64,000 nucleotides of DNA from an uncultured Verrucomicrobiota bacterium (GTDB taxonomy: Bacteria; Verrucomicrobiota; Verrucomicrobiia; CAIQCK01). Positions 1,940 to 63,398 of this stretch are shown here, in pieces. The stretch's first letter is position 1; every line of letters begins with the position of its first letter. A model generated the notes under the pieces. The model was not told the origin of the DNA. It saw only the letters and a program-made list of their open reading frames with translations, and ran no database searches. The position numbers and the translations under genes were made by a program. Location: assembly GCA_964524715.1 (NCBI GenBank), contig CAZGGF010000362.1:9968-73967 (forward strand), written 5' to 3'.

Positions 1940-2059
1940 CGCGCTTCAGGCAGCGGCAAGGAAAACTTCCGACGACTTCCGACGAACAACAGCAGTCCAG
2001 CCAGTGCTTGACCGGCAACAACCGAGAGAGGATGATTCGCGTCCAGCAGGGAACAACCT

Positions 2060-25383: not shown

Positions 25384-25579
25384 AAGTGGGCACGATATTA
25401 CGGCGGCATCCGCACACGGACAAGAACTGGATTTCGCCGACCCGCGGTTCACTCGCGGATGAACATCGCTATCACCACCCAACTTCACGGCGGAGATTCG
25501 TGTTTACGAACAGCCACAGGAACAGATAAGAGGAAGGCGAAGATTATTCTCGCTGATCCGCGACAACAAAAAGGATGCC

Positions 25580-33486: not shown

Positions 33487-33568
33487 ATCTGGCCGCCGGC
33501 GGTTGACGCCGCTCCATACGGCATACTCGTCAGCGTTGGGGGGGTCGCGGTCATGGCCTGACCGTTTG

Positions 33569-35371: not shown

Positions 35372-35432
35372 ATCAATTCAATTCCACTTCCAACAGTTTG
35401 TTAAAGTTCATGGGGTGGCCACGATCCTCGCA

Positions 35433-38128: not shown

Positions 38129-39034
38129 ATGAACACGACCATCACCCGTCGCAAGTTTCTCGAAACCGCCAGCGTGTTCGGTGCCGGAATAGGATTGTCG
38201 AGTCTGCCCACCTGCCTCCTGGCCGCGGAGCCCCCCAAGGGCGCTCCGCACGCCGAACGGCTCGGCTGGCGTCTGGCCTGTAATGCATACAGTTTCAACA
38301 AGCTCACGTTCTACGAGACGATCGACAAGGTGGCGGCGCTGGGATTGAAATGGATCGTCGGCTTCAACTGGCAAAAACTCGACCCCAAGACGCCGGAAGC
38401 GATCTTCAGCGAACGAATGTCAGCAGCCGAGCGCCAGGAAACGAAGAAACGCCTGCGCGATGCCGGAATCAAGCTGGTCGCGTGTTATTGCCGGGACTTG
38501 GCGCACGAAGATGTTTGTCGCCGAGTGTTCGATTTCGCCCGCGAGATGGGCATGGAAATGCTCGACGGCGAGCCTCCCGTCGAAGCCTTCGACATGTTGG
38601 ACAAGCTCTGCAACGAGTATCAAATCAACCTCGCGGTGCACAATCACACCAAGCCGTCGAAGTATTGGAGTCCCGAGACGCTGCTGGGCATCTTTCAGGG
38701 ACGAAGCCGGAGAATCGGCGCCTGTTGCGACACGGGACACTGGACCCGATCCGGGCTTCCTTCGGTCGAAACTCTCGCCAAGTTCCAAGGCCGCGTTCTC
38801 ACCTTCGACTTGAAAGACGTGAACGAACAGGGAGCGTGCATGCCATTCGGCACGGGCAAGGGCGACATCCGCGGAATCCTCAAGGAACTTCAGCGGCAAC
38901 GATTTCGCGGTGTGGTGGGAATCGAATACGGTTTGCGGTCGCCAGAGGCCGAGGGCGAGATTGCCCAATGCGTGGCCTTCTTCGAGAAGGTGGCCCGCGA
39001 ACTGTGCGATTCCTGCCCAACGCAATCGAAGTAG
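38129..39034 (+). CDS. Tat-signal sugar phosphate isomerase/epimerase (xylose-isomerase-like TIM barrel)
   Basis: MNTTITRRKFLETASVFGAGIGL twin-arginine signal. AVHNHTKPSKYW, GACCDTGHWTRSG and VGIEYG are AP_endonuc_2/xylose-isomerase-like metal-ligand blocks. Confidence 0.8.
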   Translation: MNTTITRRKFLETASVFGAGIGLSSLPTCLLAAEPPKGAPHAERLGWRLACNAYSFNKLTFYETIDKVAALGLKWIVGFNWQKLDPKTPEAIFSERMSAAERQETKKRLRDAGIKLVACYCRDLAHEDVCRRVFDFAREMGMEMLDGEPPVEAFDMLDKLCNEYQINLAVHNHTKPSKYWSPETLLGIFQGRSRRIGACCDTGHWTRSGLPSVETLAKFQGRVLTFDLKDVNEQGACMPFGTGKGDIRGILKELQRQRFRGVVGIEYGLRSPEAEGEIAQCVAFFEKVARELCDSCPTQSK

Positions 39035-39062
39035 AACAATACATCAATCCCCGGATACGCAT

Positions 39063-40445
39063 ATGCAACGGCGACAGTTCTTCTCGGCAATGCTGGGTGC
39101 GACAGCAGCTCTTGGTGCGACCTCGGCCAAGGCAGCGGCTGCAGACAGCCTGAGCGCGGGCGAGGGCGTGGCCGATATCACGCCGCCCTTGGGCGTCGAG
39201 TTGGCCGGTTTTCACAAGCCACCGGGGCAGGAGCGGCGGGCCAAAGAGATTCGTCAACCGTGCGAGGTGCGCGCTCTGGTGCTGGCGTGGGGTTCAACCC
39301 GGGTGGTTGTCTGTTCGCTCGACGCACTTGGCGTAAGCGAGACGATGACCGCGCGGATTCAGCAGGCTGCCGCCAAGCGCACAGGAATCCCGGTCGAAAA
39401 CATCCACGTAGCCACCACGCATGATCACAGCATGCCCACCTTCAAGAAGATACGGCAATGGGGTGCGATGCCCCCGGAGTTCGTAGCCACCGTGGAGCAA
39501 CGCACCGTGGAGGCGATCGTCGCAGCTCAGGCCGATCTGGCGCCGGCGGAGTTGTCGCTGGGCAAGTGCCGCGTGCCGGGAGGCAATCACAATCGCACCG
39601 TGAAAAAAGGCGTGGTCCGTACCGATGCTGAATTCGGCCCCCAATCCACTGACGCAGAACGCTGGCTAGATACGATGCTCCACGCCCTGGTATTCCGCCG
39701 GGCAGGCAAAAAGCCGGACCTGGTGTGGTATCACTTCTCGGCGCATGCCGTCTGTTATGCCGATGAACAGGCCGGGCCTGACTGGCCGGGCGAGGTGGCC
39801 CGGGAGATCCGCAACCAGTTGGGTCTGCGCCCGTCATTCCTTCAAGGTCACATCGGCGACGTAAACCCCGGTGACGGCAGCGACTGGCGCGGCGAGATCC
39901 GGCAGACCGTGGCCGCCATTACTCCCGCCTTGAAACAGGCGATTGCGGCCGCCAGCCCGCAGCGCGTCAATTGCCTGCGCACGTGCAGCACGCGATTCAA
40001 CGTGCCGTTCGACATGGAACGGTTCGAGCAATGGATTGACGAGTATCGCAGCGACCCGAGCAAGTGCAAATCGGGGCGATGGGTCGATGCGGGTTTCGCC
40101 GCCGATTGGTATGGTGGAAATCAGAAGCGTGATCGGAATCTCAAGCATCTTCCGATCACACTCAGCGCCATCCAACTCGGACCGGTGGGGATGCTGTTGC
40201 ACCCGGCCGAGCTCTACAGCTATTACGGGCTGGCAATCCGCCGTGGCTCGCCATTTCACGATACACTCGTGGTGGGCTGCGCCGATGGCTCAATCGGCTA
40301 CCTGCCCGACCCTGCGGCCTACCAACTTGGCGAGTATTCGGCACTGGTCGTGCCCAAAATTGTGGACAACCCTCCGTTTCAGCCCACCGCCGCGAGAGAA
40401 TTGACCGCCGCGGCAATCGCGCTGCTCAAGCGGATCGCTGGATGA
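39063..40445 (+). CDS. Tat-signal neutral/alkaline ceramidase-like N-terminal domain protein
   Basis: MQRRQFFSAMLGATAALGA twin-arginine signal. GVADITPPLGVELAGF ... LDALGV ... VATTHDHSMP resemble the Ceramidase_alk N-terminal domain. It is a paralog of the convergent 40515-41939 gene. Confidence 0.65.
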   Translation: MQRRQFFSAMLGATAALGATSAKAAAADSLSAGEGVADITPPLGVELAGFHKPPGQERRAKEIRQPCEVRALVLAWGSTRVVVCSLDALGVSETMTARIQQAAAKRTGIPVENIHVATTHDHSMPTFKKIRQWGAMPPEFVATVEQRTVEAIVAAQADLAPAELSLGKCRVPGGNHNRTVKKGVVRTDAEFGPQSTDAERWLDTMLHALVFRRAGKKPDLVWYHFSAHAVCYADEQAGPDWPGEVAREIRNQLGLRPSFLQGHIGDVNPGDGSDWRGEIRQTVAAITPALKQAIAAASPQRVNCLRTCSTRFNVPFDMERFEQWIDEYRSDPSKCKSGRWVDAGFAADWYGGNQKRDRNLKHLPITLSAIQLGPVGMLLHPAELYSYYGLAIRRGSPFHDTLVVGCADGSIGYLPDPAAYQLGEYSALVVPKIVDNPPFQPTAARELTAAAIALLKRIAG

Positions 40446-40514
40446 CGATCCCTCTCTGTGGTGTCAGCGCGGTTTGAATGACCAGGCCTGCCCTGCCCTG
40501 CGCGCCGGGCCAAC

Positions 40515-41939
40515 TCAGGATGTGCCTCGTCGCAACGGCGGCGCTGCATCGTAGAGTTCATTCAGCATCGTCACCACTTGATCGACCATTGCTTCCCCTG
40601 TGCCGGCCTCCAACATGCTGTGCCAGCCCACCCATGTCTGGTAACCGCCGTCGGCATAGGCCTGGCGATCCGGAACGTAGCTGATCTGCTCGTTGGCCAG
40701 CCCGACGATGCATGTGTGCCGGAAGGGCGACCGGCGCCGGAGTTCCAACCCGAGGCGGGCGAACATCTCGCCGGGAATACCCACGAATGCAATATCGCCC
40801 AATCGGATGATTTGCAGGCGCGCCTGCCGCGCCTCACCTTGATGCGGTGCCATCTCTTCCCGCATTTTGCGGAACCACTCGCCCTGACTCACGGCGCGAC
40901 GCGGCGCATACTTTTCCAGATAGGACTTTACCGCCAGGGCTTCTTTCGCTTCGTCGAAGCGGCGCACGTGGTAGGTGAACTGCCGGTTGAGCACTTGGAC
41001 GGGACCGGGCAGGACCGGCTGCAAACGGCCCAGCGCCTCTTCGATCGCAGCGACGACGCGGTGCACACACTCCTCTGCGGGGACACCGCTATTGTTATAG
41101 GTGGCGTTGTGCGTGGAGCCGAACGCACCCGGCAGGAACAAGGCTGTGGCGCTGTGCCGCCGTTCGATCTCCAGCGCCGCCAGACCGTAGAAGCACGGTG
41201 ACATGCAGTCTTTACGGACGTGGCCAATGTTGTGTACCGAATGGTTAAATGCAAAGCCGCCATACTTGCCGTCCGCGCGTCGTAGAGCCAATACATACAA
41301 GTCCGGGTCGTACGGACCCGTTGGCCGGACCACGTCCTGCTCCTCGTAACCATCCCAGCCGATGAGGCCATCCTTGAGCAAGAGCCGGCTATTGCGGCCG
41401 ACCGTGGCCTCCTGGCTCTGGCCGAACAACACCGTGCTCTGAGCGGCGGCCTTTGTTTTGTCAATCGCGTCAACCGCTTTGACGGCAGCCAGAACGCTCC
41501 CCTCCTCCAACCGACGAACATACTCCGCGTCCGGTTTTGCCCCGACGAAGTCGCCTGTGCGCGGGCCACGGTGGGTATGCGTCGCGCAAATAAGAATATT
41601 ATCTTCCGGTATGCCCGTGGCGACGGCGATTCGTTTGGCTGCGGGACGCGTTACATACGGTCGTATGTTCATCGAATCCAACGACACGAGGCAGATCCGC
41701 TGCTGGGCGTCGATCACCAACGCATTGGCCCGAAACTCTCCCTCCCAAGGCCGGTCAAAGACCTTTTTCGTGGCGCGCAACTCCGCCATGTTGTCGTCGG
41801 TCAATTTCACGGATGCCGACGCAGCCCGGACTGTGGGGGTCGTGTGCCGCTCCGGTTGCGCCCCATGCGAGCGCGAGGTCGCCAACGCGCCGAGTCCGGC
41901 AGCAGTGAGCATGAAGTTGCGGCGAGTCAGTTCTTTCAT
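40515..41939 (-). CDS. Tat-signal neutral/alkaline ceramidase-like domain protein (paralog)
   Basis: MKELTRRNFMLTAAGLGALA twin-arginine signal. VSLDSMNI ... ICATHTHRGP and the C-terminal IVGLANEQISYVPD parallel VVGCADGSIGYLPD of the neighbour. Confidence 0.65.
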   Translation of the reverse strand: MKELTRRNFMLTAAGLGALATSRSHGAQPERHTTPTVRAASASVKLTDDNMAELRATKKVFDRPWEGEFRANALVIDAQQRICLVSLDSMNIRPYVTRPAAKRIAVATGIPEDNILICATHTHRGPRTGDFVGAKPDAEYVRRLEEGSVLAAVKAVDAIDKTKAAAQSTVLFGQSQEATVGRNSRLLLKDGLIGWDGYEEQDVVRPTGPYDPDLYVLALRRADGKYGGFAFNHSVHNIGHVRKDCMSPCFYGLAALEIERRHSATALFLPGAFGSTHNATYNNSGVPAEECVHRVVAAIEEALGRLQPVLPGPVQVLNRQFTYHVRRFDEAKEALAVKSYLEKYAPRRAVSQGEWFRKMREEMAPHQGEARQARLQIIRLGDIAFVGIPGEMFARLGLELRRRSPFRHTCIVGLANEQISYVPDRQAYADGGYQTWVGWHSMLEAGTGEAMVDQVVTMLNELYDAAPPLRRGTS

Positions 41940-42057
41940 CGTATGCAGCAGCCCAATGTTGTCATCAGAGTTGACCCGCCCACAGACTCCCGCGCAACCA
42001 CAGCAGCAACATCCGCGCCGTGCTGCGCAGTTGCGTTCCGGAGTCTCGCAAGGTTGT

Positions 42058-43311
42058 TTAACCTTCGCGGATTTCGCGCTTTTGCGGGTCAAAAATCTGG
42101 CGCTTGCCGGTGTCCATGGCGCGGACGCCCATCATCACAGGGACGGAATGGTAGTAGCCAGCCTCGATAGGCGCGTTGGTCGTCTTGCGCGTGCGCAGGC
42201 ATTGCAGCCAGTCCAGGAAGTGGTCCGGGATCTCGACCGGTTCGACGACCGTGTCCACCTTGGGCAGCTTGCTGGGCTTGATGGCCCCGGCCAAGGAATA
42301 GGTGGGGCCTTTTCTGTTGGTCAAATCGATCGTCCCCTCGTCGCCGTAAATCTTCTGCACACTGCCGCTCGAGTTGCCGAAATTGGTGGAGTAGTGCACC
42401 AGGAAGCCCTCGGGATAAATCCATGTGGCCTCGCAGTGGTCGGGACAGGTGAAGCCCTCATCCTTCCAAGTGAAGGTGCCGCCCTGGGCCACGCAACTCA
42501 AGGGAAGCTTCGAGCCGACGATGTAGTTGTTCAGATCAATGAAATGGCACCCCAGGTTGGCAATGGGGCCGTCGGTGAATTCGCGGAATCCATACCAGCC
42601 GGTCAATAGTTTGCCGTCGAAGGGCCGCACGGGCCGATCCATGAGGAATTCCTTCCAGTCCACATCCTCGGCCTTGACCGGTTCGGCCCGATTCATCCAC
42701 GAATACCAATAAGGCTTGGCGCCATTGCGGCACTGCTCGATGCGCGAGACCTTGCCAATGGCACCAGACTCAAAGAGTTTCTTACAACCGGCACTGGTGG
42801 CATAGCTGCGGACTTGAGTGCCCATCTGCACGACTTGGGAACTGGCCTTGACCAGGTCGAAAACGCGGTTGAGGGCCTCCATGTTCATGGCCAGCGGTTT
42901 TTCCACATAGACGTCCTTCTTGGCCTTGATGGCGGCTTCCAAGTGCAGGCAGTGCTGGTGATCACACGAGGCAATCATCACCGCGTCGACGTCGTCCAGA
43001 GCCATGATGTCCTGATAAGAAACGAACTGCCGCGCCGGGCGGCCATACCATTCCTTGGCCCGAGCCGCAGCCCGCTCGCGGCGCTGCCGCCAGGGATCAC
43101 TGACCGCGGTAAACTCGACGTTCTGCGCCTTGTCGTAAGGATGAACGCCCTTCATATGGGCGTCGAAGCCGCGACCGCCGCAGCCGATGAGGCCCAGCGA
43201 AATCCGTTCGTTGGCGCCCGCGATCCTGGCGTAGCTGGCAGCGGTGAAGGCCATGGCGGCCCCAGCCGAAGCTGTCTTGAGGAACTGCCGACGAGAAGCG
43301 AATGCTTTCAT
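42058..43311 (-). CDS. Tat-signal Gfo/Idh/MocA family oxidoreductase
   Basis: MKAFASRRQFLKTASAGAAMA signal. LGLIGCGGRG Rossmann motif and VYVEKPLA. Confidence 0.9.
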   Translation of the reverse strand: MKAFASRRQFLKTASAGAAMAFTAASYARIAGANERISLGLIGCGGRGFDAHMKGVHPYDKAQNVEFTAVSDPWRQRRERAAARAKEWYGRPARQFVSYQDIMALDDVDAVMIASCDHQHCLHLEAAIKAKKDVYVEKPLAMNMEALNRVFDLVKASSQVVQMGTQVRSYATSAGCKKLFESGAIGKVSRIEQCRNGAKPYWYSWMNRAEPVKAEDVDWKEFLMDRPVRPFDGKLLTGWYGFREFTDGPIANLGCHFIDLNNYIVGSKLPLSCVAQGGTFTWKDEGFTCPDHCEATWIYPEGFLVHYSTNFGNSSGSVQKIYGDEGTIDLTNRKGPTYSLAGAIKPSKLPKVDTVVEPVEIPDHFLDWLQCLRTRKTTNAPIEAGYYHSVPVMMGVRAMDTGKRQIFDPQKREIREG

Positions 43312-43489
43312 GAGTCTATCTCCGGTAGGTGAATCGAGTGCATCCTAGCGCGCCGATGTCGTGCGGCAAGCTCAAAGAGAGCCAATCGTCAATCGCGACC
43401 CGTTCAACTCCATATCCGATTGAAGCCGGAGGTCAAAGCTGACCCCACAGGCAAATCCCAAATATTGCAGAGACAGCCCGCCGTCTCAC

Positions 43490-44848: not shown

Positions 44849-44872
44849 GGGATCAACTCCTGGATTGTTTGT

Positions 44873-47068: not shown

Positions 47069-47080
47069 GGCAGATGTGGC

Positions 47081-50014: not shown

Positions 50015-50018
50015 GACC

Positions 50019-52190: not shown

Positions 52191-52197
52191 AATAGGA

Positions 52198-55044: not shown

Positions 55045-55056
55045 AGACGCTTTGCC

Positions 55057-57240: not shown

Positions 57241-57332
57241 AGCTGTCTGATCTTCTGCGATGGGTCCTTGCCGTGGCAGTCCGGCTGCTTCATCACGCCG
57301 GCCCGCGGCTCGAATCAACGGCTCTTCAACGC

Positions 57333-58667
57333 TCAGCTTTTCGTCAGTTCCTTGCGGTGCGCCCAGACTTTCTCGAAAGCCTTGATATATTGTTCGTTGA
57401 GTTCGGGCATTTCCTTGGTGAAGAACGGAAGTGAAATCCCATGCTTGTCCACCGCCGCAGCGCCGGGAAACTGGTCCGCCACCACGGGCATGTGATGCCA
57501 CCATTCAATTTCGTGGAAGATCGGATTCTTGCACAGGAACTGTGCGCCCGCGACGCCCACAGAAACACCCTCCGCCCGCAGCGCCTTCACACACGCCGCC
57601 CGTGACATCCCGGCCTCGGCCTCGTCCAGATAAAACCGGTTCGCGGCGTAATACACGCGGTCCACGTCCTTGCGGTTTTGCTGTTCACGGAGACCCGGCA
57701 GCCTGGTGATCCGGTCGTTGAGCCGGCGGACCTGGGCTTTCAACGCGGCGTTCCGCTCGGCGAGTTTCGCCAGTTGGCACTTGGCCAGCGCGGCAGCCAT
57801 CGGATGCATGCGCAGTTTCATTCCAAGTCCGTAAGCGTATTTCTTGCAGGGCCCCTTCAGCTTGGAGGCCCATTCGTAGTGACCGAGTATCGTGGCCCGC
57901 TCGAAGTCCTCCTGATTCTGATAGTTCCCCATGCCGCCTTCGATAGCCGGGAGCGGTTTGCTGGCCTGGAAACTGAAGCACGCCATCCGGCCCCATGCGC
58001 CCATGAATTTGCCGTGCATGGACGCGCCGTGCGCGTGGCAGGCGTCTTCGAGGACGATGAGGCCCTTCTCTTTGCAGAAGTCGGAGATGTAATCCATGTC
58101 CGCAGGCATGCCCAAGTAATGCACGGGGAACACGGCTTTCGTGTTCTTGGTCAGCTTCCGTTTCGCGTCCTCGATGTCGAAGTTCAGTGTGACGGGATTG
58201 ATGTCCACCATGACCGGCACCAGGCCGAAGAACCGCATCGGCGTGATCGTGGCCCAAAACGTGGAGCAAGGCACCATGATCTCGCTGCCAGCTGGAAGAT
58301 TCAGCGCGAAATACATCGCCGTGATGGCGCTCGTGCCGTTGTAGTGCGCCTTGCAATACGGCAGCTTGAAATGCTTCTTCCAATCCGCCTCCAGTGCATC
58401 ATTCGGCGCATAGTCGGGCTTCCGCAGCACATCCAGGACGGCCTTCTCCTCCTCGGCTCCATAGCGTGGCCAGGTCGTGCCGTCCTCGTGCGACGCCGTG
58501 ACCGCTTTCGCGCCGCCCTTCAACGCCAGTGTCTCCGCATCCTTCCCCGCCGCGCCCGCCGTCGAGATGGTGGGCGGCAGCAAGAATCCCGCGCCCGCCA
58601 GCCCCGTGGTCTTGATAAACGTCCTCCTCGTCGCGCCGGTCGTTGAGTTCTCCGTGTTCTTCTTCAT
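57333..58667 (-). CDS. Tat-signal DegT/DnrJ/EryC1/StrS-family PLP-dependent aminotransferase
   Basis: MKKNTENSTTGATRRTFIKTTGLAGAGFLL twin-arginine signal. NGTSAITAMYFAL, LEDACHAHGA and FSFQASKPL (PLP-Lys context) are typical of the DegT family. Confidence 0.8.
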   Translation of the reverse strand: MKKNTENSTTGATRRTFIKTTGLAGAGFLLPPTISTAGAAGKDAETLALKGGAKAVTASHEDGTTWPRYGAEEEKAVLDVLRKPDYAPNDALEADWKKHFKLPYCKAHYNGTSAITAMYFALNLPAGSEIMVPCSTFWATITPMRFFGLVPVMVDINPVTLNFDIEDAKRKLTKNTKAVFPVHYLGMPADMDYISDFCKEKGLIVLEDACHAHGASMHGKFMGAWGRMACFSFQASKPLPAIEGGMGNYQNQEDFERATILGHYEWASKLKGPCKKYAYGLGMKLRMHPMAAALAKCQLAKLAERNAALKAQVRRLNDRITRLPGLREQQNRKDVDRVYYAANRFYLDEAEAGMSRAACVKALRAEGVSVGVAGAQFLCKNPIFHEIEWWHHMPVVADQFPGAAAVDKHGISLPFFTKEMPELNEQYIKAFEKVWAHRKELTKS

Positions 58668-58914
58668 GGCTCCTTTGGGATAACAGTGGTTGCGTCGTTG
58701 ATGGCAGACCGCAGTTTGCCACCGCGCTGCTGCCGCACGCCACAAGAAAAAAGCCATGCTTGGAAGGCGAAGTCAGCGCCGTCGACCTTGGCTTCGGCTT
58801 CACCACCGGCATCGCCACTGGGGCGTGACACCAGCAGCTTATGTCCTTATTCCACATCGCAACTGCCTTGCCAGCCCTTCCGTGTTGCCCTATAACCCCA
58901 CCATCCGGCAATTC

Positions 58915-59133
58915 ATGAACGAGCACCTCGTTTTCCACTACATTTGGTCTGGCGGAATAATCGCTGGTGGATGTTATTTGCTGTGGAAGAGAGAAATCCC
59001 CATTGCTATCAGAGGCGGCCCTGATCTTTTTACGTTGCGAGGAGTACCCGCGATAGTTGTGGCATGCCTGATTATCGCTTTCGGAACATATATATTGTTC
59101 CATCCAGACTTCTTTTCGCACCAACGCCAGTAG
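58915..59133 (+). CDS. possible small 2-TM membrane protein (72 aa)
   Basis: MNEHLVFHYIWSGGIIAGGCYLLW...VPAIVVACLIIAFGTYILF. It lies in a local low-GC patch and I recognise no homology. Confidence 0.3.
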   Translation: MNEHLVFHYIWSGGIIAGGCYLLWKREIPIAIRGGPDLFTLRGVPAIVVACLIIAFGTYILFHPDFFSHQRQ

Positions 59134-59478
59134 GGCCAGATATCGAAGAAGCGAATTCGGGGAGCGATGCGATAACTTTTTCCCCGTTCCAACGGGGTGG
59201 GCATCACTCAGCCCGGCGTTGACCGGTGCCTTCGACCTAGTCGGGTATAGGAAAGAAAACCAATCCCACCCCAAACGGGGTTGTATCATCCTCCCAAGAG
59301 GATTCATCTCCTTAAGAGATGCGAAATGGTCGTTGTCCCGGGGTAGCTGGCGCCTCGCAACCCCGGGCTGAATGATCGAATCCCGTCCGGATTCAGGCTG
59401 CGCCGCGCCGCAGGCGGGTCACGGAGATTCTGCGTCGACGCTGAAAAAAACTGAGTCTCCAACAGCGGGAAACAGCGA
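59134..59478. other. hairpin-dense non-coding region between convergent genes (REP-like / structured RNA candidate)
   Basis: At least six 5-7 bp stem-loops: 59182-59197, 59288-59303, 59305-59321, 59337-59367, 59378-59394 and 59398-59413. No credible ORF. Confidence 0.45.
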
Positions 59479-60789
59479 TTACTTCTTCCCGCCACCAACT
59501 CGCGGTTTTGGCTTGATGAAGATCGCTTCGGCGTAATCAATCCATCCCTTCCGCAGGTCCATGCGGAACCAGCCTTCGCTGTTCTTCGCGTGGAAACGGG
59601 TGGCCGAGCGGGGGCCGAATTCCTTGAGGTCGTATTGCGCCCACGTCTTGCCCATGTCGGTCGAGACGATGATGCCGGTCTTCATCGACGAAGCGGGCGC
59701 GCAGTGCGACGCCAGGATCACGCCGTCCTGGATGATCATGTTGCCGGACTCGACTTTCGGGTTGAACAGCATCGTGTGCTTCTCCGGCTTGGTGATGTCG
59801 GCGGGGTCGCAACAGAAGATGCCGCGATCGTAGTCGCCCTGGTTCCACGGCCTGAAAGCGTTGGCGTCGCTGATCCAGTAGCACTTGCCGTCCACGAAAT
59901 TGATGCCGCCGCATTTGTAACGCGAGTTTGAGTCCACCGATATGAGGAGCTTCCACTGCCACTTGTCCTTCTTCTCGTCGTAGGTGCCGCGCAACCAGTG
60001 GCACTCTAGCCCGGCTCCGCGATTGATATCACCCGTGCAGGCGTAGAACGCGTTTTCAGGCGGGTTATACGCCACCGTGTGGACGTGGCGGCAGAGCAGC
60101 GAATTGTCGGGGTTGCCCAGCACCGTGCCCGTCTTGCCACCGCCGGGCGAGCCGTTGTCGTGGAAATGGGGATTCTGCCCGAAAGCATACGCGATCTTCA
60201 CGGTCCGGCCGCTGTCGGTGGAGTAGTAGATGTTCACGGGGACCGCGCCGCCGACCACGTTGCAGTAGTTCCCCCACACCATCATCTCCCTGCCGTTCAC
60301 GTCCCACGAGATGACGCCCGCGAGCGTATGGAAATACCAGCCGGGGTTGTTGGGATTCTTCGGCGTGTGCGGCAGGTAATCCGCGCCGTTGGTGTCCTTC
60401 ACCGTGATCGGCTGGATCGTCTTCAGCTTGTCGGTGCTGAGGAAAAGTTTCTCGCGCGTGCTGAAGAGAACGTTCCCGTTCTTGAGGATGTGGCTGAACG
60501 TGATGTGCTTCTCCTCGGGGAACGCAATGCGGTGCGGCCATGTGCGGCCGTTGTCCTCGGAGAGCATCACCTGCCCGTCGCCGTGGCCGAACGCCCTGTT
60601 GTCGCACTGCGAGTCAATGTAAGGCCCCGCCGGCTGCGCCCGATACCAGAAGTGATCGTTGGAAGGGAACTCGTCGGTGGCGGCGTTGAGTTTGCGAGCG
60701 CTGGCTATCATTAGTCCTCCGGTGGTTGCCGCGGCAGTGCCCAGAAAACAGCGGCGAGTGATTCGTTGTGGTGGGTTCATGGCGTTCAT
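59479..60789 (-). CDS. Tat-signal BNR/Asp-box beta-propeller protein (sialidase-like glycoside hydrolase)
   Basis: RITRRCFLGTAAATTGG signal. Asp-box motifs SEDNGRTW, STDSGRTV and STDMGKTW. First ATG at 60789 (the track uses TTG 60798). Confidence 0.75.
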   Translation of the reverse strand: MNAMNPPQRITRRCFLGTAAATTGGLMIASARKLNAATDEFPSNDHFWYRAQPAGPYIDSQCDNRAFGHGDGQVMLSEDNGRTWPHRIAFPEEKHITFSHILKNGNVLFSTREKLFLSTDKLKTIQPITVKDTNGADYLPHTPKNPNNPGWYFHTLAGVISWDVNGREMMVWGNYCNVVGGAVPVNIYYSTDSGRTVKIAYAFGQNPHFHDNGSPGGGKTGTVLGNPDNSLLCRHVHTVAYNPPENAFYACTGDINRGAGLECHWLRGTYDEKKDKWQWKLLISVDSNSRYKCGGINFVDGKCYWISDANAFRPWNQGDYDRGIFCCDPADITKPEKHTMLFNPKVESGNMIIQDGVILASHCAPASSMKTGIIVSTDMGKTWAQYDLKEFGPRSATRFHAKNSEGWFRMDLRKGWIDYAEAIFIKPKPRVGGGKK

Positions 60790-60798
60790 CCTTAACAA

Positions 60799-61695
60799 TT
60801 ACGTCGTCTTATCATCAGCGGCTTTGTTGAAACCACCGGATGGAGATCTCGGGTCTGATTCTGTTGACAGACTTTCTGGGAACAGCGGCAACTGCAACGA
60901 CGTGCCGCTGTCCGTTGCGCTATCTTGTTGAACCCTGTCATGCTTCTCCATTGCCACAGTAGGCATTCGGATGCCGGTTGCCGATTCAAGATCCAAGAAC
61001 GCGAGGCACCGTTGCCGCAAGAATTGTGGATTCCATCGGTTGGGTTCGACCTGCGTCTCTTGCAGGGTTTCAAGGAGCGCGCTGACGTGCGAATTTCGGC
61101 AGAAGACTTTCTTGAGCGACTGAATAGCCAGAAACCCAATGAAATCGTCTTCGTCCTCAACCGCTGCGAAGAGAGCTGCATGACATCGAGAATCTTCTGT
61201 AAAATCGCCGAGGGCTTCGACTGCCATCATTCTTGTCCATTGATAGCCCTTTGGAGTGTCGTTCAACATGTCAATGATTGCAGCGGCGGCCTCGCTCCAC
61301 TTCTCTATCTGATACAACGCGTGAGCAGCATGCACACGCAGACATCTATAGCTCGAACGGAATCCGGAACGGAGGCGATTCTTGATGATCGGCGCGGCAG
61401 CGCTGATCCGCATGACGCCAGCCGCGATGAAAGGACGACTGTCATCGGTCTGTTCCAAAGCATTCACAATCATCGCTTCAGCAGTTGCCCGCTCATTGCC
61501 AGAAAGAGACAGAGCCGCCTCGACGTCTAGTCCGTCTCTCCTTGCGCCAAACGAGTTATCGAAACAACTCGCGCGGAAATGTTCAAATTCCTCGGAGACT
61601 GACATGGGCGTGCTTACCATGTTATATTGCGACGCAGGGGACGTTGAGACTTTTTTTCCGGCTCGTCCAGAGGAATTGTGATCGTCGTTCTTCAT
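60799..61695 (-). CDS. HEAT-repeat protein (cytoplasmic, no signal peptide)
   Basis: AVEALGDFTEDSRCHAALFAAVEDEDDFIGFLAIQSLKKV is a HEAT_2/PBS-lyase-type repeat, and the protein is helical throughout. GC is visibly lower than in flanking genes. Its stop abuts the BNR gene start. Confidence 0.5.
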   Translation of the reverse strand: MKNDDHNSSGRAGKKVSTSPASQYNMVSTPMSVSEEFEHFRASCFDNSFGARRDGLDVEAALSLSGNERATAEAMIVNALEQTDDSRPFIAAGVMRISAAAPIIKNRLRSGFRSSYRCLRVHAAHALYQIEKWSEAAAAIIDMLNDTPKGYQWTRMMAVEALGDFTEDSRCHAALFAAVEDEDDFIGFLAIQSLKKVFCRNSHVSALLETLQETQVEPNRWNPQFLRQRCLAFLDLESATGIRMPTVAMEKHDRVQQDSATDSGTSLQLPLFPESLSTESDPRSPSGGFNKAADDKTT

Positions 61696-61698
61696 CCC

Positions 61699-62424
61699 TC
61701 AAAACGGCTGGCTGTTTCGACGGCGGATGTAAATCTCATCAACGGCCGCTTTCTCCGACAGCGACAGAAGGAACATCACCGATTGGGCAATGTCCTCAGG
61801 CCGCATCAAGATCGAACGATCCAGGTCCGGACGGGCGTCGCCGACCATGCCCGTGTCCACGCCGCCGGGCAGGATCGCGCTGACGCGGATGCCGTGCGGC
61901 TGGGCCTCCACCGCGAGCGACTTGGTCAAGCCCATCACGGCGTGCTTGGTGGCCGTGTAGGCAGCCTGGTTGGGATAGCCTTTGAAGCCGACCACGCTGG
62001 AGATGTTGATGATGTAACCGCGGCGCTGCGGGATCATCAGGCGCATGGCCTGCTGGCAGCACCAGAACGTGCCAAGCAGATTGACCGCCACCACCTGCTT
62101 CAGGTCCGCGCTGGCGAAATCCACCAGCGGCCCGAACCGGCCGATGCCCGCGTTGTTGACCAGCACGTCCAGCCGCCCCAGCTTTTCCCTGACCTGCGCG
62201 AACGCAGCGCCTACTTGGTCTTCCTGCGCAATGTCCAGCGGCAAGGCCATGGCCCGGCCACCGGCGGCGACAATCTCCCGCGCCACTGTCTCGATCTCCG
62301 CGCGGCTTCGGGCCGCCGCCACGACGTGAGCGCCAGCCGCGCCCAACGCGCGGGCAATCGCCCGGCCGATGCCCCGCCCCGCTCCAGTGACCAGGGCCAC
62401 TTGTCCTTCAAGCTGTTGCGACAT
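61699..62424 (-). CDS. SDR-family oxidoreductase
   Basis: Start at ATG 62424. VALVTGAGRGIGRAIA (TGxxxGxG), NNAG and the catalytic YTATK (YxxxK). Confidence 0.85.
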   Translation of the reverse strand: MSQQLEGQVALVTGAGRGIGRAIARALGAAGAHVVAAARSRAEIETVAREIVAAGGRAMALPLDIAQEDQVGAAFAQVREKLGRLDVLVNNAGIGRFGPLVDFASADLKQVVAVNLLGTFWCCQQAMRLMIPQRRGYIINISSVVGFKGYPNQAAYTATKHAVMGLTKSLAVEAQPHGIRVSAILPGGVDTGMVGDARPDLDRSILMRPEDIAQSVMFLLSLSEKAAVDEIYIRRRNSQPF

Positions 62425-62453
62425 GAGTGATGGACTCCTTTGCGCCCGCGCGA

Positions 62454-63398
62454 TCAACTGCCGGCCACCAACCGCTCGACGAACAAGCGGCCTTTGCGCG
62501 CCTCGCTGATCAGTTGTGCGGCGTCGCCCGGGACGAGCGTTTCGATGATCAACGGTCCGTGAGTAAAACCTCCCTTGGCCAACCGCGCCATCAGGGCCGG
62601 GAACTTCACCTGTCCGGTGCCGGGCGTGACGGCCACCTTCTTCGGATGCTGGTAATCCTTCACGCACATGCCGCTGACGATGCCATCGAGCACCGCGGCA
62701 TCCTCCACGGGGTCCACTTTGCCGTCAGAGTAAAAGAAAATGTTACCGGGGTCATACATCACGGTGAAGTTCTTGTGGCGCACCGCATCGCACGCCTTGC
62801 GCAGCAACGGACCGGGGCCGGTCAAACCTCCATGCGGCTTCAGCACGATGCCCACCTTTTTCTCCGCGGCGTAGTCGCACACTTCTGCAATCGCCTTGCA
62901 GTGGTTCTCGTAAGTCTTCTCAGTGCCCAGGCTGCCCACCATCATGGACCAGGCGCCTGCGGCAGCGCAGTTGTCAATCATCCGCCGCAAACTCTCCACG
63001 CCGTCCTTCACCGAGCGGTCGCTGGCGAACGCGCCGCCGTAGGCGTTGGGGATTTGCAGACCGCGCTTCCGGGCCTCCTCGCCCATCTTCGCGGCTTCCT
63101 CCAGCGGCGTGGCCGACGCGATCACCCGTTTGGTGGCCGACTTGATCCCCGAGAAACCAATGTATTTGAACCCCGCCTCCGCGATGGCATCGAATGCTTC
63201 GCCGTATTCGCAGGCCGCCCACGGACGCGTGTAACAGCCAATCTGCCAACCCGTCGTCGGGGGAGCGCCGACTGGCACGGGCGCGCCCAGGGCGCTTTGC
63301 TGCGATGCAAACCAGCCGCCAGCCGCTGCGGCGGTCGTCCGGCTCAGGAACTCTCGCCGTGTCAATCGGTCACTGTCGTTGTGCTGCAATCGTGTCAT
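62454..63398 (-). CDS. Tat-signal sugar phosphate isomerase/epimerase (xylose-isomerase-like TIM barrel)
   Basis: LTRREFLSRTTAAAAGG signal. TIM-barrel AP_endonuc_2-like blocks (IVLKPHGG, MYDPGNIFFYSDG, LIIE). Confidence 0.8.
   Translation of the reverse strand: MTRLQHNDSDRLTRREFLSRTTAAAAGGWFASQQSALGAPVPVGAPPTTGWQIGCYTRPWAACEYGEAFDAIAEAGFKYIGFSGIKSATKRVIASATPLEEAAKMGEEARKRGLQIPNAYGGAFASDRSVKDGVESLRRMIDNCAAAGAWSMMVGSLGTEKTYENHCKAIAEVCDYAAEKKVGIVLKPHGGLTGPGPLLRKACDAVRHKNFTVMYDPGNIFFYSDGKVDPVEDAAVLDGIVSGMCVKDYQHPKKVAVTPGTGQVKFPALMARLAKGGFTHGPLIIETLVPGDAAQLISEARKGRLFVERLVAGS

What the first reader, a model, noticed from the sequence alone, without database searches (positions are those of the whole stretch)
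38129..63398. Dense locus of eight Tat-exported cofactor-type enzymes: candidate periplasmic redox/PLP-assisted glycan deconstruction system
Eight proteins within 25 kb carry clear twin-arginine signals, seen directly in the sequence.
- 38129: TRRKFLE, xylose-isomerase-like TIM.
- 39063: QRRQFF, ceramidase-like.
- 41939(-): TRRNFM, ceramidase-like.
- 43311(-): SRRQFLK, Gfo/Idh/MocA.
- 44848(-): ARRQFLK, Gfo/Idh/MocA.
- 58667(-): TRRTFIK, DegT aminotransferase.
- 60789(-): TRRCFLG, BNR propeller.
- 63398(-): TRREFLS, TIM.
By contrast, the interleaved beta-helix and CBM hydrolases use Sec-type signals.
Established knowledge:
- Tat exports folded, cofactor-loaded proteins.
- Gfo/Idh/MocA-fold enzymes include NAD-dependent glycosidases (GH109) and glycoside 3-dehydrogenases.
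- Xylose-isomerase-like TIM proteins act as lyases/isomerases on 3-keto-glycosides, as in C-glycoside DgpA/DgpBC-type pathways.
- DUF1080 is named for 3-keto-disaccharide hydrolase.
Inference: the locus encodes an oxidation-elimination, and possibly transamination, route for cleaving or remodelling glycosides in the periplasm, downstream of conventional depolymerases. The combination with ceramidase-like amidohydrolases, a PLP enzyme and an SDR is not a described pathway as far as I know.
Basis: partly seen in the sequence, partly recalled or inferred. Interest (0 to 1): 0.75.

Follow-up and report, generated by a model that had tools for sequence, protein, structure and literature searches.

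The report
Glycan-degrading island rich in Tat-exported enzymes
A freshwater or groundwater Verrucomicrobium carries a large sugar-polymer-degrading gene island in which eight enzymes really do have twin-arginine export signals; most of it fits a recently described oxidative way of cutting sugars, but it also holds an uncharacterised exported aminotransferase that may extend that chemistry to amino sugars.

Summary
All eight twin-arginine N-termini and their family assignments are real. They are clustered (8 of 15 cluster genes against 0 of about 33 upstream genes, p=2e-5), and their h-regions are clearly less hydrophobic than those of the five interleaved Sec-type proteins.

Both Gfo/Idh/MocA proteins are closest to AL3/BT_2158, the Tat-exported glycoside 3-dehydrogenase of the oxidation-elimination-hydration pathway (Nasseri et al. 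2024). That part is therefore a known kind of chemistry. The two TIM barrels show no detectable link to that pathway's lyases.

The eight genes are not one co-conserved system. They split into separately conserved modules:
- TIM1-Cer1 | Cer2
- beta-helix -> Gfo2
- TIM2-SDR-BNR | DegT-beta-helix

DegT and Gfo2 bracket one tightly packed seven-gene block with the beta-helix proteins.

The new element is the Tat-signal DegT aminotransferase. It is a widespread orthogroup (68-97% identity across four or more phyla, RR kept in 115/120). It often occurs in tandem arrays inside PULs, next to ceramidase-fold amidases, other amidohydrolases, sulfatases, Gfo, DUF1080 and TIM proteins. I found no published function. 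The working hypothesis is periplasmic transamination of de-N-acylated amino-glycosides to keto-glycosides.

The parts
38129..39034 (+). TIM1: Tat-signal xylose-isomerase-like TIM barrel (301 aa)
   Evidence: RR motif ITRRKFLE. PF01261, 57 bits. Best PDB hit is 3P6L, a Bacteroidales structural-genomics protein of unknown function, E 1e-53. No hit to the AL1/BT1 lyases. A 98% ortholog sits beside Cer1 in L057.
39063..40445 (+). Cer1: Tat-signal neutral-ceramidase-fold Zn amidohydrolase, catalytic domain only (460 aa)
   Evidence: MQRRQFFS. PF04734 N-terminal part, 40.5 bits. Zn ligands and catalytic His/Tyr conserved. Orthologs (73-94%) lie beside Cer2 in L057, L072 and L073.
40515..41939 (-). 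Cer2: Tat-signal neutral-ceramidase-fold Zn amidohydrolase, catalytic domain only (474 aa)
   Evidence: LTRRNFML. 2ZWS E 1e-7. AF2 model pLDDT 85.6; Foldseek finds only neutral ceramidases, E 1e-20 to 1e-23. H121, H123, H236, E391, Y421 and Y433 invariant. Orthogroup 70-95% identical across PVC phyla; GNAT fusions in Armatimonadota.
42058..43311 (-). Gfo1: Tat-signal Gfo/Idh/MocA oxidoreductase (417 aa)
   Evidence: ASRRQFLK; passes TIGR01409. PF01408 plus C-terminal domains. Best PDB hit AL3 8TDF/8TDH, E about 1e-16. Best NCBIfam model BT_2158_fam, 85 bits, below the cutoff of 750.
43490..44848 (-). Gfo2: Tat-signal Gfo/Idh/MocA oxidoreductase (452 aa), last gene of the DegT...Gfo2 block
   Evidence: VARRQFLK. 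PF19051, 100 bits. AL3 8TDF E 2e-21. BT_2158_fam 146 bits over profile positions 2-430 of 487. Orthogroup 72-94% identical. The beta-helix -> Gfo2 adjacency is conserved in L055.
44873..47068 (-). BH1: Sec-signal right-handed beta-helix protein (731 aa)
   Evidence: PF13229 and weak PF12708. 53-60% identical to BH2 and BH3. Sec-type signal.
47081..50014 (-). GH42L: Sec-signal 977-aa protein with weak GH42 catalytic and trimerisation-domain matches
   Evidence: PF02449, 27 bits (cutoff 21); PF08532 weak. Present in L008 and L009 only.
50019..52193 (-). BH2: Sec-signal beta-helix paralog (724 aa)
   Evidence: PF13229, 39 bits; paralogy.
52198..55017 (-). U939: Sec-signal 939-aa protein, no Pfam or NCBIfam family
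   Evidence: Orthologs only in L008 and L009.
55057..57240 (-). BH3: Sec-signal beta-helix paralog (727 aa), directly downstream of DegT
   Evidence: PF13229 weak. DegT-BH3 order conserved in L008-L012. An 80% ortholog lies directly upstream of Gfo2 in L055. No PDB sequence relative.
57333..58667 (-). DegT: Tat-signal DegT/DnrJ/EryC1-type PLP aminotransferase (444 aa), first gene of the DegT...Gfo2 block
   Evidence: ATRRTFIK, with AAGGAG 5 nt before the ATG. PF01041, 211 bits. K237 (SFQASK) and D208 invariant. 1863 homologs; the top 120 are 68-97% identical and 115 keep RR. Best PDB hit is Fic25, E 7e-45.
58668..59478 (-). Variable 811-nt spacer; probable boundary between transcription units
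   Evidence: Terminator-like hairpin with T-run at 59473-59455(-), right after the BNR stop. Not alignable to relatives, where the spacer is 0.4-4.7 kb.
59479..60789 (-). BNR: Tat-signal BNR/Asp-box beta-propeller (436 aa)
   Evidence: ITRRCFLG. PF15902, 35 bits; BNR repeats. 87-98% orthologs upstream of DegT in L008-L012 and a 68% ortholog 4 kb from DegT in a Pirellulaceae MAG, L021. No PDB hit.
60799..61695 (-). HEAT-repeat ORF (298 aa, no signal): strain-specific insertion, probably not part of the system
   Evidence: PF13646, 29.7 bits. GC3 0.56. The segment 60794-61694 is absent from L009-L012.
61699..62424 (-). SDR: classical short-chain dehydrogenase (241 aa), no signal peptide
   Evidence: PF00106, 227 bits. 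92-97% orthologs between TIM2 and BNR in L009-L012.
62454..63398 (-). TIM2: Tat-signal xylose-isomerase-like TIM barrel (314 aa)
   Evidence: LTRREFLS. PF01261, 88.7 bits. TIGR01409 16.5 bits, just below cutoff. No PDB hit with the single sequence; the profile gives only 3TVA and 4OVX at E about 1e-3.
63460..64000 (-). BH4: C-terminal part of a fourth beta-helix paralog running off the window
   Evidence: 75% identical to BH1 residues 551-731. In L009 the full-length gene is preceded by DUF4838, a further RR-signal protein and DUF6259.
24583..25503 (-). DUF1080 (3keto-disac_hyd) protein with a Sec-type signal, outside the finding's coordinates but in the same glycan island
   Evidence: PF06439, 132 bits; signal. 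The neighbouring U1485/U671 genes lie next to TIM1 in L057 and next to BH3 in L011.

Best explanation
The region is part of a large (at least 40 kb) PUL-like glycan-degradation island of an uncultured Verrucomicrobiia bacterium. It has no SusC/D genes and is assembled from several separately conserved modules.

Proposed sequence of events:
1. Sec-exported proteins first fragment a still unidentified polysaccharide. These are at least four paralogous beta-helix proteins, a GH42-like protein and a 939-aa protein of unknown family.
2. Tat-exported, cofactor-preloaded enzymes then work on the oligosaccharides in the periplasm.
3. Gfo1 and Gfo2 act like AL3/BT_2158. With tightly bound NAD they oxidise a ring hydroxyl (C3) of a glycoside to a ketone. 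This acidifies C2-H and allows non-hydrolytic cleavage by elimination and hydration.
4. The candidate lyases/hydratases are the two TIM barrels, the DUF1080 protein at 24.6 kb and possibly the BNR propeller. The cytoplasmic SDR would handle imported keto-sugars.
5. The Tat-exported DegT carries PLP into the periplasm. No nucleotide sugars exist there, so it must act on free or glycosidic amino or keto sugars.
6. I propose that DegT converts a free ring amine to a ketone, after N-deacylation by secreted ceramidase-fold Zn amidases or similar enzymes. This would feed amino-glycosides, which escape the dehydrogenase route, into the same elimination chemistry.

Shown: the signals, the families, the catalytic residues, the gene packing and the module conservation.
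Inferred: export, substrates, the direction of transamination and the coupling between steps.
For: Signals and clustering.

Gfo1 and Gfo2:
- Nearest solved structure is AL3 (8TDF/8TDH).
- Nearest NCBIfam model is glycoside 3-dehydrogenase BT_2158_fam, and Gfo2 covers nearly the whole profile.

Operon-like packing: DegT-92-BH3-39-U939-4-BH2-4-GH42L-12-BH1-24-Gfo2 (gaps in nt).

Conserved adjacencies:
- Beta-helix -> Gfo2 is conserved in L055, among GH5, GH28, GH115 and esterase genes.
- TIM2-SDR-BNR...DegT-BH3 is conserved in L008-L012.

DegT:
- Catalytic Lys237 and Asp208 are invariant.
- RR is kept in 115/120 homologs.
- The 36 non-close DegT-anchored loci are rich in further DegT paralogs (17 within 4 kb, 11 of them with RR signals), Gfo (11), ceramidase-fold proteins (14 ORFs in 10 loci), DUF1080 (at least 6), AP_endonuc_2 (at least 5) and sulfatases.
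- Examples: L023 = SusC, Cer-like, sulfatase, four Tat-DegT. L015 = GH109-like, three Cer-like, Amidohydro_2, four DegT, Gfo. L006 = PIG-L deacetylase, Gfo, DegT, sulfatases. L001 = SusC-SusD plus two DegT.

Cer-like proteins:
- All keep the Zn site.
- The Cer2 fold matches only neutral ceramidases.
- GNAT fusions point to acetyl/amine chemistry.

Literature:
- Nasseri et al. state that 3-amino and other 3-modified glycosides are not substrates of the dehydrogenase route.
- PtaA and PvdN show that Tat export of PLP enzymes is real.
Against: - No biochemical or expression data exist.
- TIM1 and TIM2 are not detectably related to the proven AL1/BT1 lyases.
- Both Gfo proteins score far below the BT_2158 equivalog cutoff (85 and 146 against 750 bits), so a different regio- or substrate specificity is quite possible. 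IolG-type inositol dehydrogenases are the second-best hits.
- The window's own Cer1 and Cer2 lie more than 16 kb from DegT. The Cer2 orthogroup is never next to the DegT orthogroup in 40 anchored loci, so a Cer->DegT coupling is not supported for these particular genes.
- Gfo paralogs are about as frequent near Cer2 anchors (7/40) as near DegT anchors (10/36). They are as frequent far from DegT as near it. Part of the association may therefore be genomic background in these gene-family-rich phyla.
- The source of an amino acceptor in the periplasm is unknown.
- The beta-helix family and U939 have no characterised relatives, so the polysaccharide is unknown.
- No transporter or regulator was seen in the cluster.
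Confidence: 0.55

Rival explanations
1. One reading: the eight Tat enzymes form one dedicated, co-evolving periplasmic pathway (redox + PLP + amidase) for a single glycan.
For: All eight lie within 25 kb. Thirteen of the 15 complete cluster genes are on one strand with mostly short gaps. The near-identical relatives L009 and L057 keep the same order.
Against: At moderate divergence the set breaks up.
- L010-L012 (DegT 90-93%) keep TIM2-SDR-BNR...DegT-BH3. They show no orthologs of TIM1, Cer1, Cer2, Gfo1 or Gfo2 within 10 kb.
- Of 40 Cer2-anchored loci, none has the DegT orthogroup.
- Gfo2 occurs alone in L056.
- A variable spacer and a terminator-like hairpin separate BNR from DegT.
- Gaps of 178 and 118 nt precede Gfo1 and Cer2.
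Confidence: 0.1
2. The Tat enzymes act on free monosaccharides or cyclitols and not on glycosides. This would be an inositol/inosose-type periplasmic module: Gfo as an IolG-like dehydrogenase, TIM as an IolE/IolI-like dehydratase or isomerase, and DegT as an inosose aminotransferase. It would merely be parked next to depolymerase genes.
For: - Second-best NCBIfam hits of both Gfo proteins are IolG (E 6e-19 and 1e-24).
- The best NCBIfam hit of TIM1 is IolE, though weak.
- DegT hits glutamine:scyllo-inosose and 2-deoxy-scyllo-inosose aminotransferases at E 1e-27 to 1e-30.
- Planctomycete DegT loci contain SSF and GntP transporters and LacI-type regulators typical of small-molecule catabolism.
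Against: - The best hits of both Gfo proteins are glycoside 3-dehydrogenases, and Gfo2 aligns over the whole BT_2158 profile.
- DegT and Gfo2 are packed in one block with five large Sec-exported glycan-active-looking proteins.
- Bacteroidales copies sit behind SusC/SusD, which import oligosaccharides.
Confidence: 0.17
3. Gfo + DegT work in the biosynthetic direction (hydroxyl -> ketone -> amine), as in NtdC/NtdA, WbpB/WbpE and GnnA/GnnB, but in the periplasm. They would remodel the cell's own envelope glycans or make an amino sugar product.
For: The dehydrogenase + DegT pair is the classic route to 3-amino sugars (my own knowledge of those systems). NtdA and WbpE are among the PDB hits.
Against: - The neighbourhoods are catabolic: SusC/D, sulfatases, esterases, GH-like proteins and amidases.
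- No glycosyltransferases or flippases lie in the cluster.
- The known biosynthetic pairs use cytoplasmic nucleotide or phosphate sugars.
Confidence: 0.08
4. The clustering is an enrichment without functional meaning. PVC genomes carry very many Tat-signal Gfo and TIM paralogs (my own knowledge, not measured here), and a glycan island simply accumulates them.
For: Gfo paralogs appear at similar rates around unrelated anchors. Each orthogroup is individually widespread and highly conserved in varied contexts.
Against: - 0 of about 33 upstream genes against 8 of 15 in the cluster.
- Specific adjacencies recur at 55-80% identity in other genera: BH3->Gfo2 in L055, BNR near DegT in L021, Cer2-Cer1 in L072 and L073, and a TIM2 ortholog 7 kb from Cer2 in L071.
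Confidence: 0.1

Closest known systems
AL1-5 / BT2156-2160 oxidation-elimination-hydration glycoside cleavage system (Nasseri et al., bioRxiv 10.1101/2024.03.25.586180; Liu et al. 2021, PMC8121099)
   Same: Both have a Tat-exported Gfo/Idh/MocA enzyme, and AL3 is the nearest solved relative of Gfo1 and Gfo2. Both have xylose-isomerase-like TIM barrels and a DUF1080 protein in the same island. Both are set in the periplasm, which requires pre-loaded cofactors.
   Different: Gfo1 and Gfo2 are far below the equivalog threshold. TIM1 and TIM2 are not detectably related to the AL1/BT1 lyases and carry Tat signals, whereas AL1 has a Sec signal. DUF1080 is 13 kb away and not in the operon. No DUF6377-type regulator is present. 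The cluster is embedded in a large depolymerase cluster and adds DegT, ceramidase-fold amidases, BNR and SDR.
Dehydrogenase + DegT aminotransferase couples NtdC/NtdA (kanosamine), WbpB/WbpE and GnnA/GnnB (from my own knowledge; NtdA and WbpE are among the PDB hits)
   Same: A Gfo/Idh/MocA 3-dehydrogenase is paired with a DegT-family PLP enzyme acting on the resulting ketone or amine at a sugar ring carbon.
   Different: The known couples are cytoplasmic, biosynthetic, and act on nucleotide- or phosphate-activated sugars. Here both partners carry Tat signals and sit in catabolic clusters, so the substrates cannot be nucleotide sugars and the likely direction is amine to ketone.
PtaA and PvdN, Tat-exported periplasmic PLP enzymes of pyoverdine tailoring (PMC6206403)
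   Same: A PLP enzyme is folded and cofactor-loaded in the cytoplasm and exported by Tat. In both cases it is an open question how PLP is regenerated from PMP in the periplasm.
   Different: A different aminotransferase family, a different substrate (a peptide-siderophore glutamate residue) and a different biological setting. No relation to glycans.
Neutral ceramidase (P. aeruginosa 2ZWS/2ZXC, human 4WGK)
   Same: Same catalytic-domain fold (Foldseek E 1e-20 to 1e-23). The residues aligned to H97, H99, H204, E411, Y448 and Y460 of 2ZWS are all conserved. Their roles as Zn ligands and catalytic residues are from my memory of the structure paper.
   Different: Cer1 and Cer2 are about 170 residues shorter and lack the C-terminal domain. 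They are 14-18% identical, and NCBIfam gives 24 bits against a cutoff of 1200. They are found in glycan clusters and PULs, and homologs are fused to GNAT acetyltransferases. The substrate is more likely an N-acyl amino sugar or another small amide than ceramide (inference).
Bacteroidota polysaccharide utilisation loci, and PUL-like clusters of PVC bacteria
   Same: Co-localised secreted depolymerases and accessory enzymes. Bacteroidales relatives of DegT lie directly behind SusC/SusD.
   Different: The window has no SusC/D, TonB-dependent receptor, regulator or sugar transporter. It has an unusually high share of Tat substrates.

Membership tests
Tat (twin-arginine) signal peptide | S/T-R-R-x-F-L-K-like motif near the N-terminus | tested here: met
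   All eight have R-R-x-F-[LFMI] within residues 3-19. The motif is conserved in orthologs.
Tat (twin-arginine) signal peptide | Moderately hydrophobic h-region, less hydrophobic than in Sec signals | tested here: met
   Mean 1.43 against 2.48 for the five Sec-type proteins, with no overlap, p=0.0016. TIM2 is the weakest at 0.93.
Tat (twin-arginine) signal peptide | Passes the curated HMM thresholds (TIGR01409 / PF10518) | tested here: inconclusive
   Only Gfo1 passes TIGR01409. TIM2, Cer2 and Gfo1 are near but below cutoff on one or the other model. The others are not reported.
Tat (twin-arginine) signal peptide | Actual Tat-dependent export of the folded protein | not testable with these tools
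   Needs reporter fusions or fractionation in tat+ and tat- backgrounds.
AL3/BT_2158-type glycoside 3-dehydrogenase | Gfo/Idh/MocA Rossmann domain plus C-terminal domain, with a Tat signal | tested here: met
   AL3 carries a twin-arginine signal according to the paper.
AL3/BT_2158-type glycoside 3-dehydrogenase | Scores above the NCBIfam equivalog cutoff (NF058561, 750 bits) | tested here: not met
   Gfo1 scores 85.5 bits and Gfo2 145.6 bits. It is the nearest family, but they are not equivalogs.
AL3/BT_2158-type glycoside 3-dehydrogenase | Active-site residues of AL3 (Gln161, Arg192, Trp195, Asp248, His252, Tyr349) | not tested
AL1/BT1-type 3-keto-glycoside 1,2-lyase | Xylose-isomerase-like TIM barrel | tested here: met
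   PF01261 scores 57 and 89 bits.
AL1/BT1-type 3-keto-glycoside 1,2-lyase | Detectable sequence relation to AL1/BT1 (8TCD-8TCT) | tested here: not met
   TIM1 hits only 3P6L, 4KW2 and 3LMZ. TIM2 hits nothing as a single sequence. The TIM2 profile at E<=10 gives only 3TVA and 4OVX.
AL1/BT1-type 3-keto-glycoside 1,2-lyase | His-Asp-His metal site plus catalytic Glu | not tested
   No alignment to AL1/BT1 was obtainable. TIM2 orthologs have invariant H189, D216/D225, H251 and E286, but their equivalence is unverified.
AL2/BT2-type DUF1080 lyase/hydratase as part of the locus | DUF1080 gene inside the cluster | tested here: not met
   None lies in 38129-63398. The nearest are at 24583-25503 and in a kinase fusion at 2036-5005.
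DegT/DnrJ/EryC1/StrS sugar aminotransferase | Fold-type I PLP domain PF01041 above threshold | tested here: met
   211 bits against a cutoff of 19.8.
DegT/DnrJ/EryC1/StrS sugar aminotransferase | Schiff-base lysine and the Asp that binds the pyridine N | tested here: met
   K237 in SFQASK and D208 in LEDACHAHG are invariant in 20 sequences from four or more phyla. This fits a transaminase and not a His-type dehydratase.
DegT/DnrJ/EryC1/StrS sugar aminotransferase | Nucleotide-sugar substrate, as in the characterised equivalogs (PseC, ArnB, WecE, DesI) | tested here: not met
   All equivalog models are far below cutoff: PseC 142 against 423 bits, ArnB 124 against 631. A periplasmic location also excludes nucleotide sugars (inference).
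Neutral ceramidase | Catalytic-domain fold with the Zn site | tested here: met
Neutral ceramidase | C-terminal domain and equivalog-level similarity | tested here: not met
   474 aa against 646 aa. The Pfam match covers the N-terminal part only. NF041649 scores 24 bits against a cutoff of 1200.
Bacteroidota-type PUL | SusC/SusD pair | tested here: not met
   No TonB-dependent receptor or SusD hit anywhere in the window. The pair is present next to DegT orthologs in Bacteroidales.

The most novel reading that the evidence does not exclude
Tat-exported DegT aminotransferases constitute a second, transaminative entry into the keto-glycoside elimination pathway.
1. Secreted ceramidase-fold, PIG-L or Amidohydro_2 amidases, or sulfamidase-like sulfatases, remove the N-substituent.
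2. The periplasmic PLP enzyme then converts the ring amine of an amino-glycoside into a ketone.
3. TIM-barrel or DUF1080 lyases can then cleave the glycosidic bond.
4. The bound PMP is recycled by a keto-sugar product, in the way that AL3's bound NADH is recycled by 3-keto-glucose.

This would explain how bacteria degrade the 3-amino and other amino-modified glycans and natural products that Nasseri et al. found resistant to the dehydrogenase route.
Probability: 0.25. Interest if true: 0.85.

Novelty: new variant of a known kind. Interest (0 to 1): 0.55.

Why it matters
The non-Koshland, 3-keto route of glycoside cleavage was worked out only recently and in gut Bacteroidales. This locus suggests that environmental Verrucomicrobiota link the same kind of Tat-exported dehydrogenase directly to batteries of uncharacterised beta-helix depolymerases.

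More importantly, it draws attention to a large family of periplasmic, Tat-exported DegT aminotransferases. The family is strongly conserved and spans several phyla. It occurs in tandem arrays behind SusC/SusD and beside N-deacylating enzymes, and I could find no published function for it.

If these enzymes deaminate amino-glycosides in the periplasm, three things would follow:
- They would fill the gap left by the dehydrogenase route, which does not handle amino- or 3-modified sugars.
- They would add a new reaction class to carbohydrate-active enzymology.
- They would bear on the turnover of bacterial cell-envelope glycans, chitosan-like polymers and possibly aminoglycoside-type compounds in nature.

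The hypothesis is directly testable with recombinant proteins.

Tried and rejected
- Structure of the beta-helix family. A profile search against PDB sequences found nothing, nor did the single sequence. The depolymerase type and the substrate remain unknown.
- Promoter and terminator scan. Counts do not exceed shuffled expectation: 6 against 4.4 and 19 against 20.1. Only the hairpin after the BNR stop is mentioned, as a hint.
- Looking beyond the window edge by exact-protein lookup of TIM2 and SDR. Neither is on record. L009 (96% DNA identity) was used as a proxy.
- Reciprocal test of the Cer-DegT link. It is negative for the Cer2 orthogroup (0 of 40 loci). I therefore dropped the idea that the window's own Cer1 and Cer2 are dedicated partners of DegT. 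The link holds only for other subfamilies of the ceramidase fold.
- Near versus far comparison around DegT. Gfo and Cer-like genes are not concentrated within 4 kb relative to 6-10 kb, so the association is at the scale of the island and not of the operon. A true genome-wide background could not be computed.
- Literature. Searches for Tat or periplasmic DegT enzymes and for aminotransferases in PULs returned nothing relevant. The best PDB hit, 8GYH, turned out to be Fic25 of ficellomycin biosynthesis, which says nothing about substrate.
- Rfam and tRNA scans of the window were empty.
- The idea that the SDR carries an upstream signal was rejected. The longer ORF overlaps the TIM2 coding sequence, and the SDR starts at 62424 without a signal.

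Full report
**Origin and context.** The window has about 60% GC. Its upstream 38 kb holds housekeeping genes (topoisomerase I, DprA, DHQ synthase) together with PVC hallmarks: a DUF1559/N-methyl prepilin protein, a Ser/Thr kinase fused to DUF1080, and GHL6/GHL10. The closest relatives of the locus are uncultured Verrucomicrobiia MAGs from groundwater and lakes, 90-97% identical at protein level (L008-L012).

**Observation.**
- Translating the claimed ORFs shows all eight twin-arginine N-termini exactly where stated. Pfam confirms every family label.
- The five large interleaved proteins are three beta-helix paralogs at 53-60% identity, a weak GH42-like protein and a 939-aa protein without any family. 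All five have classic Sec signals.
- A uniform RR + h-region scan of all six frames finds seven of the eight and nothing credible in the first 38 kb. That is 8 of 15 cluster genes against 0 of about 33, p=1.7e-5.
- The RR proteins have clearly less hydrophobic h-regions than the Sec proteins: 1.43 against 2.48, with no overlap, p=0.0016.
- The motif is conserved in orthologs across phyla.
- Curated Tat HMMs are only marginally informative.
- I consider the observation confirmed.

**Anatomy.**
- On the minus strand the genes form tight blocks. BH4-TIM2-SDR-HEAT-BNR has gaps of 61, 29, 3 and 9 nt. An 811-nt spacer follows. DegT-BH3-U939-BH2-GH42L-BH1-Gfo2 has gaps of 92, 39, 4, 4, 12 and 24 nt. 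Gfo1 follows after 178 nt and Cer2 after 118 nt. These converge on the plus-strand pair TIM1-Cer1.
- The spacer begins with a terminator-like hairpin directly after the BNR stop. It is a variable spot in relatives, 0.4 to 4.7 kb long. DegT has a good Shine-Dalgarno sequence.
- The HEAT-repeat ORF is a strain-specific insertion of about 900 bp.
- A fourth beta-helix paralog runs off the right edge. In the 96%-identical L009 the DNA beyond it encodes a DUF4838 protein with GH20b/GH67N-like domains, another RR-signal protein without a Pfam family, and DUF6259.
- To the left, DUF1080, GHL6, an esterase and two large unknown proteins (24.6-35.4 kb) belong to the same island. Their orthologs abut TIM1 in L057 and BH3 in L011.

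**What the proteins are.**
- Gfo1 and Gfo2. The best solved relatives are 8TDF and 8TDH. The supplement of Nasseri et al. identifies these as AL3, the Tat-exported glycoside 3-dehydrogenase. DgpA C-glycoside oxidases come next. The best NCBIfam model is BT_2158_fam 'glycoside 3-dehydrogenase', and Gfo2 matches over almost the full profile, but both are far below the equivalog cutoff.
- TIM1. It matches only Bacteroidales structural-genomics proteins.
- TIM2. It matches nothing except two planctomycete structural-genomics TIM barrels at E about 1e-3 with a profile. The AL1/BT1 lyase entries never appear.
- DegT. It is a bona fide fold-type I enzyme with invariant Lys237 and Asp208. Its nearest structure is Fic25 of ficellomycin biosynthesis. 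All NCBIfam equivalogs are well below cutoff.
- Cer2. It models confidently (pLDDT 85.6) and matches only neutral ceramidases. Every residue aligned to the ceramidase zinc and catalytic site is conserved in Cer1, Cer2 and 14 further Cer-like proteins. The proteins lack the C-terminal domain. Homologs in Armatimonadota are fused to GNAT acetyltransferases.
- BNR, the beta-helix family and U939. None has a characterised relative.

**Is it one system?** No.
- Loci anchored on DegT (47 loci) show that TIM2-SDR-BNR...DegT-BH3 is conserved in the close relatives. The number of beta-helix, GH42L and U939 genes varies, and orthologs of TIM1, Cer1, Cer2, Gfo1 and Gfo2 are not seen within 10 kb.
- Gfo2 belongs to a very widespread orthogroup, 72-94% identical. 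In L055 an 80% BH3 ortholog directly precedes an 83% Gfo2 ortholog, in a cluster with GH5, GH28, GH115 and esterases. In a Pirellulales MAG, Gfo2 stands alone.
- Loci anchored on Cer2 (40 of at least 6 kb) never contain the DegT orthogroup. The only recurrent partner of Cer2 is Cer1.
- The 25-kb locus is therefore a species-level assembly of modules that are individually conserved.

**The DegT family.** This is the most interesting result.
- 1863 homologs were found. The best 120 are full-length and 68-97% identical, from Verrucomicrobiia, Kiritimatiellae, Bacteroidota and Planctomycetota, and 115 keep the RR motif.
- In 36 non-close loci, the commonest families within 4 kb (193 ORFs) are further DegT paralogs (17, of which 11 have RR signals), Gfo/Idh/MocA (7), DUF1080 (at least 5), Ceramidase_alk (at least 5 by Pfam, 10 by BLAST), AP_endonuc_2 (at least 5) and sulfatases (4).
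- Examples. SusC-SusD followed by two DegT (L001/L013). SusC, Cer-like, sulfatase, then four Tat-DegT (L023). GH109-like, three Cer-like, Amidohydro_2, four DegT, then Gfo (L015). PIG-L, Gfo, DegT and sulfatases (L006). Cer-like, BNR, DUF1080, DegT, fucosidase and SDR (L003).
- Gfo and Cer-like genes are about as common at 6-10 kb as within 4 kb, so the link is at island scale. A genome-wide background could not be computed.

**Mechanism.**
- Established: AL3/BT3, with tightly bound NAD, oxidises C3 of a glycoside. A TIM-barrel enzyme (AL1/BT1) or a DUF1080 enzyme (AL2/BT2) then eliminates the aglycone, and the glucal is hydrated. The reduced cofactor is re-oxidised by the 3-keto-sugar product. 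Glycosides modified at C3, including 3-amino sugars, are not substrates.
- Established: PLP enzymes can be exported by Tat with their cofactor (PtaA, PvdN).
- Inferred here: Gfo1 and Gfo2 perform the oxidation step on oligosaccharides released by the Sec-exported proteins. The TIM barrels, DUF1080 and perhaps BNR provide the lyase and hydratase steps.
- Inferred here: the periplasmic DegT cannot see nucleotide sugars, so it transaminates a free ring amine of an amino-glycoside to the ketone, after N-deacylation or N-desulfation. This would open the elimination route to amino sugars.
- The amino acceptor is unknown. A keto-sugar product would make the cycle cofactor-neutral, but that is speculation.

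**Comparison and novelty.**
- The redox part is a new member or variant of a known kind of pathway.
- The Tat-DegT orthogroup and the secreted catalytic-domain-only ceramidase-fold amidases have no characterised members that I could find.
- Overall I rate the finding as a new variant of a known kind. Interest is moderate to good, mainly because it yields a sharply testable hypothesis about periplasmic amino-sugar chemistry.

Noticed in passing
window 60794-61694 (ORF 60799-61695, - strand): A HEAT-repeat ORF with low GC3 (0.56) and no signal peptide. It is a strain-specific insertion of about 900 bp between SDR and BNR, and is absent from all four close relatives, where about 100 nt separate the two genes.
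   Followed up: partly
window 58668-59478: The BNR-DegT spacer is a variable hot spot. It is not alignable to relatives and is 0.4 kb in L009, about 1 kb in L012, 2.4 kb in L011 and 4.7 kb in L010. It contains a terminator-like hairpin (59473-59455, - strand) and a Pfam-less 302-aa ORF (58399-59307) that overlaps the DegT start and is probably spurious.
   Followed up: partly
window 63460-64000 (-); L009:1-6432: The cluster runs off the window. A fourth beta-helix paralog lies at the edge. By proxy of L009 it is preceded by DUF4838 (with GH20b/GH67N-like N-terminal domains), a 316-aa Pfam-less protein with another RR signal (TDRRSFLAQ) and DUF6259.
   Followed up: partly
P0316-P0346 (homologs of window 40515-41939): In Armatimonadota the ceramidase-fold domain (50-58% identical to Cer2) is fused to a GNAT N-acetyltransferase domain, giving proteins of about 600 aa. 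This domain fusion hints at acetyl/amine chemistry.
   Followed up: no
L013/L001, L015, L023, L050, L041-L043: Tandem arrays of two to four mutually divergent (about 30% identical) DegT paralogs, most with their own RR signals. Several lie directly behind SusC/SusD in Bacteroidales. One locus (L001/L013) is a minimal unit of SusC, SusD and two DegT.
   Followed up: partly
window 61699-62424 (-): A classical SDR without any signal peptide is conserved between two Tat-signal genes (TIM2 and BNR) in all close relatives. It is either cytoplasmic or possibly co-exported as a Tat 'hitchhiker'. Nothing tested.
   Followed up: no
window 2036-5005 (+): A 989-aa Ser/Thr protein kinase fused to a DUF1080 (3-keto-disaccharide-hydrolase-like) domain. 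It could be a sensor linking keto-sugar or glycan recognition to signalling.
   Followed up: no
window 29029-33486 (+), 33389-35404 (+), 52198-55017 (-): Three large secreted proteins (1485, about 670 and 939 aa) with no Pfam family. U1485 and U671 orthologs lie next to different modules of the island in different relatives (next to BH3 in L011, next to TIM1 in L057), which shows rearrangement within the island.
   Followed up: partly
window 22676-23836 (+): An XerC/D-like tyrosine recombinase (Phage_integrase plus SAM-like N-terminal domain) lies just upstream of where the glycan island starts (DUF1080 at 24583). Whether it marks an island boundary was not examined.
   Followed up: no
L012:4604-5833: In this relative a distant Cer-like gene (26% identical to Cer2) sits directly upstream of TIM2, in the position occupied by BH4 in the window. 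Ceramidase-fold genes therefore do enter the TIM2-SDR-BNR-DegT module in some genomes.
   Followed up: no
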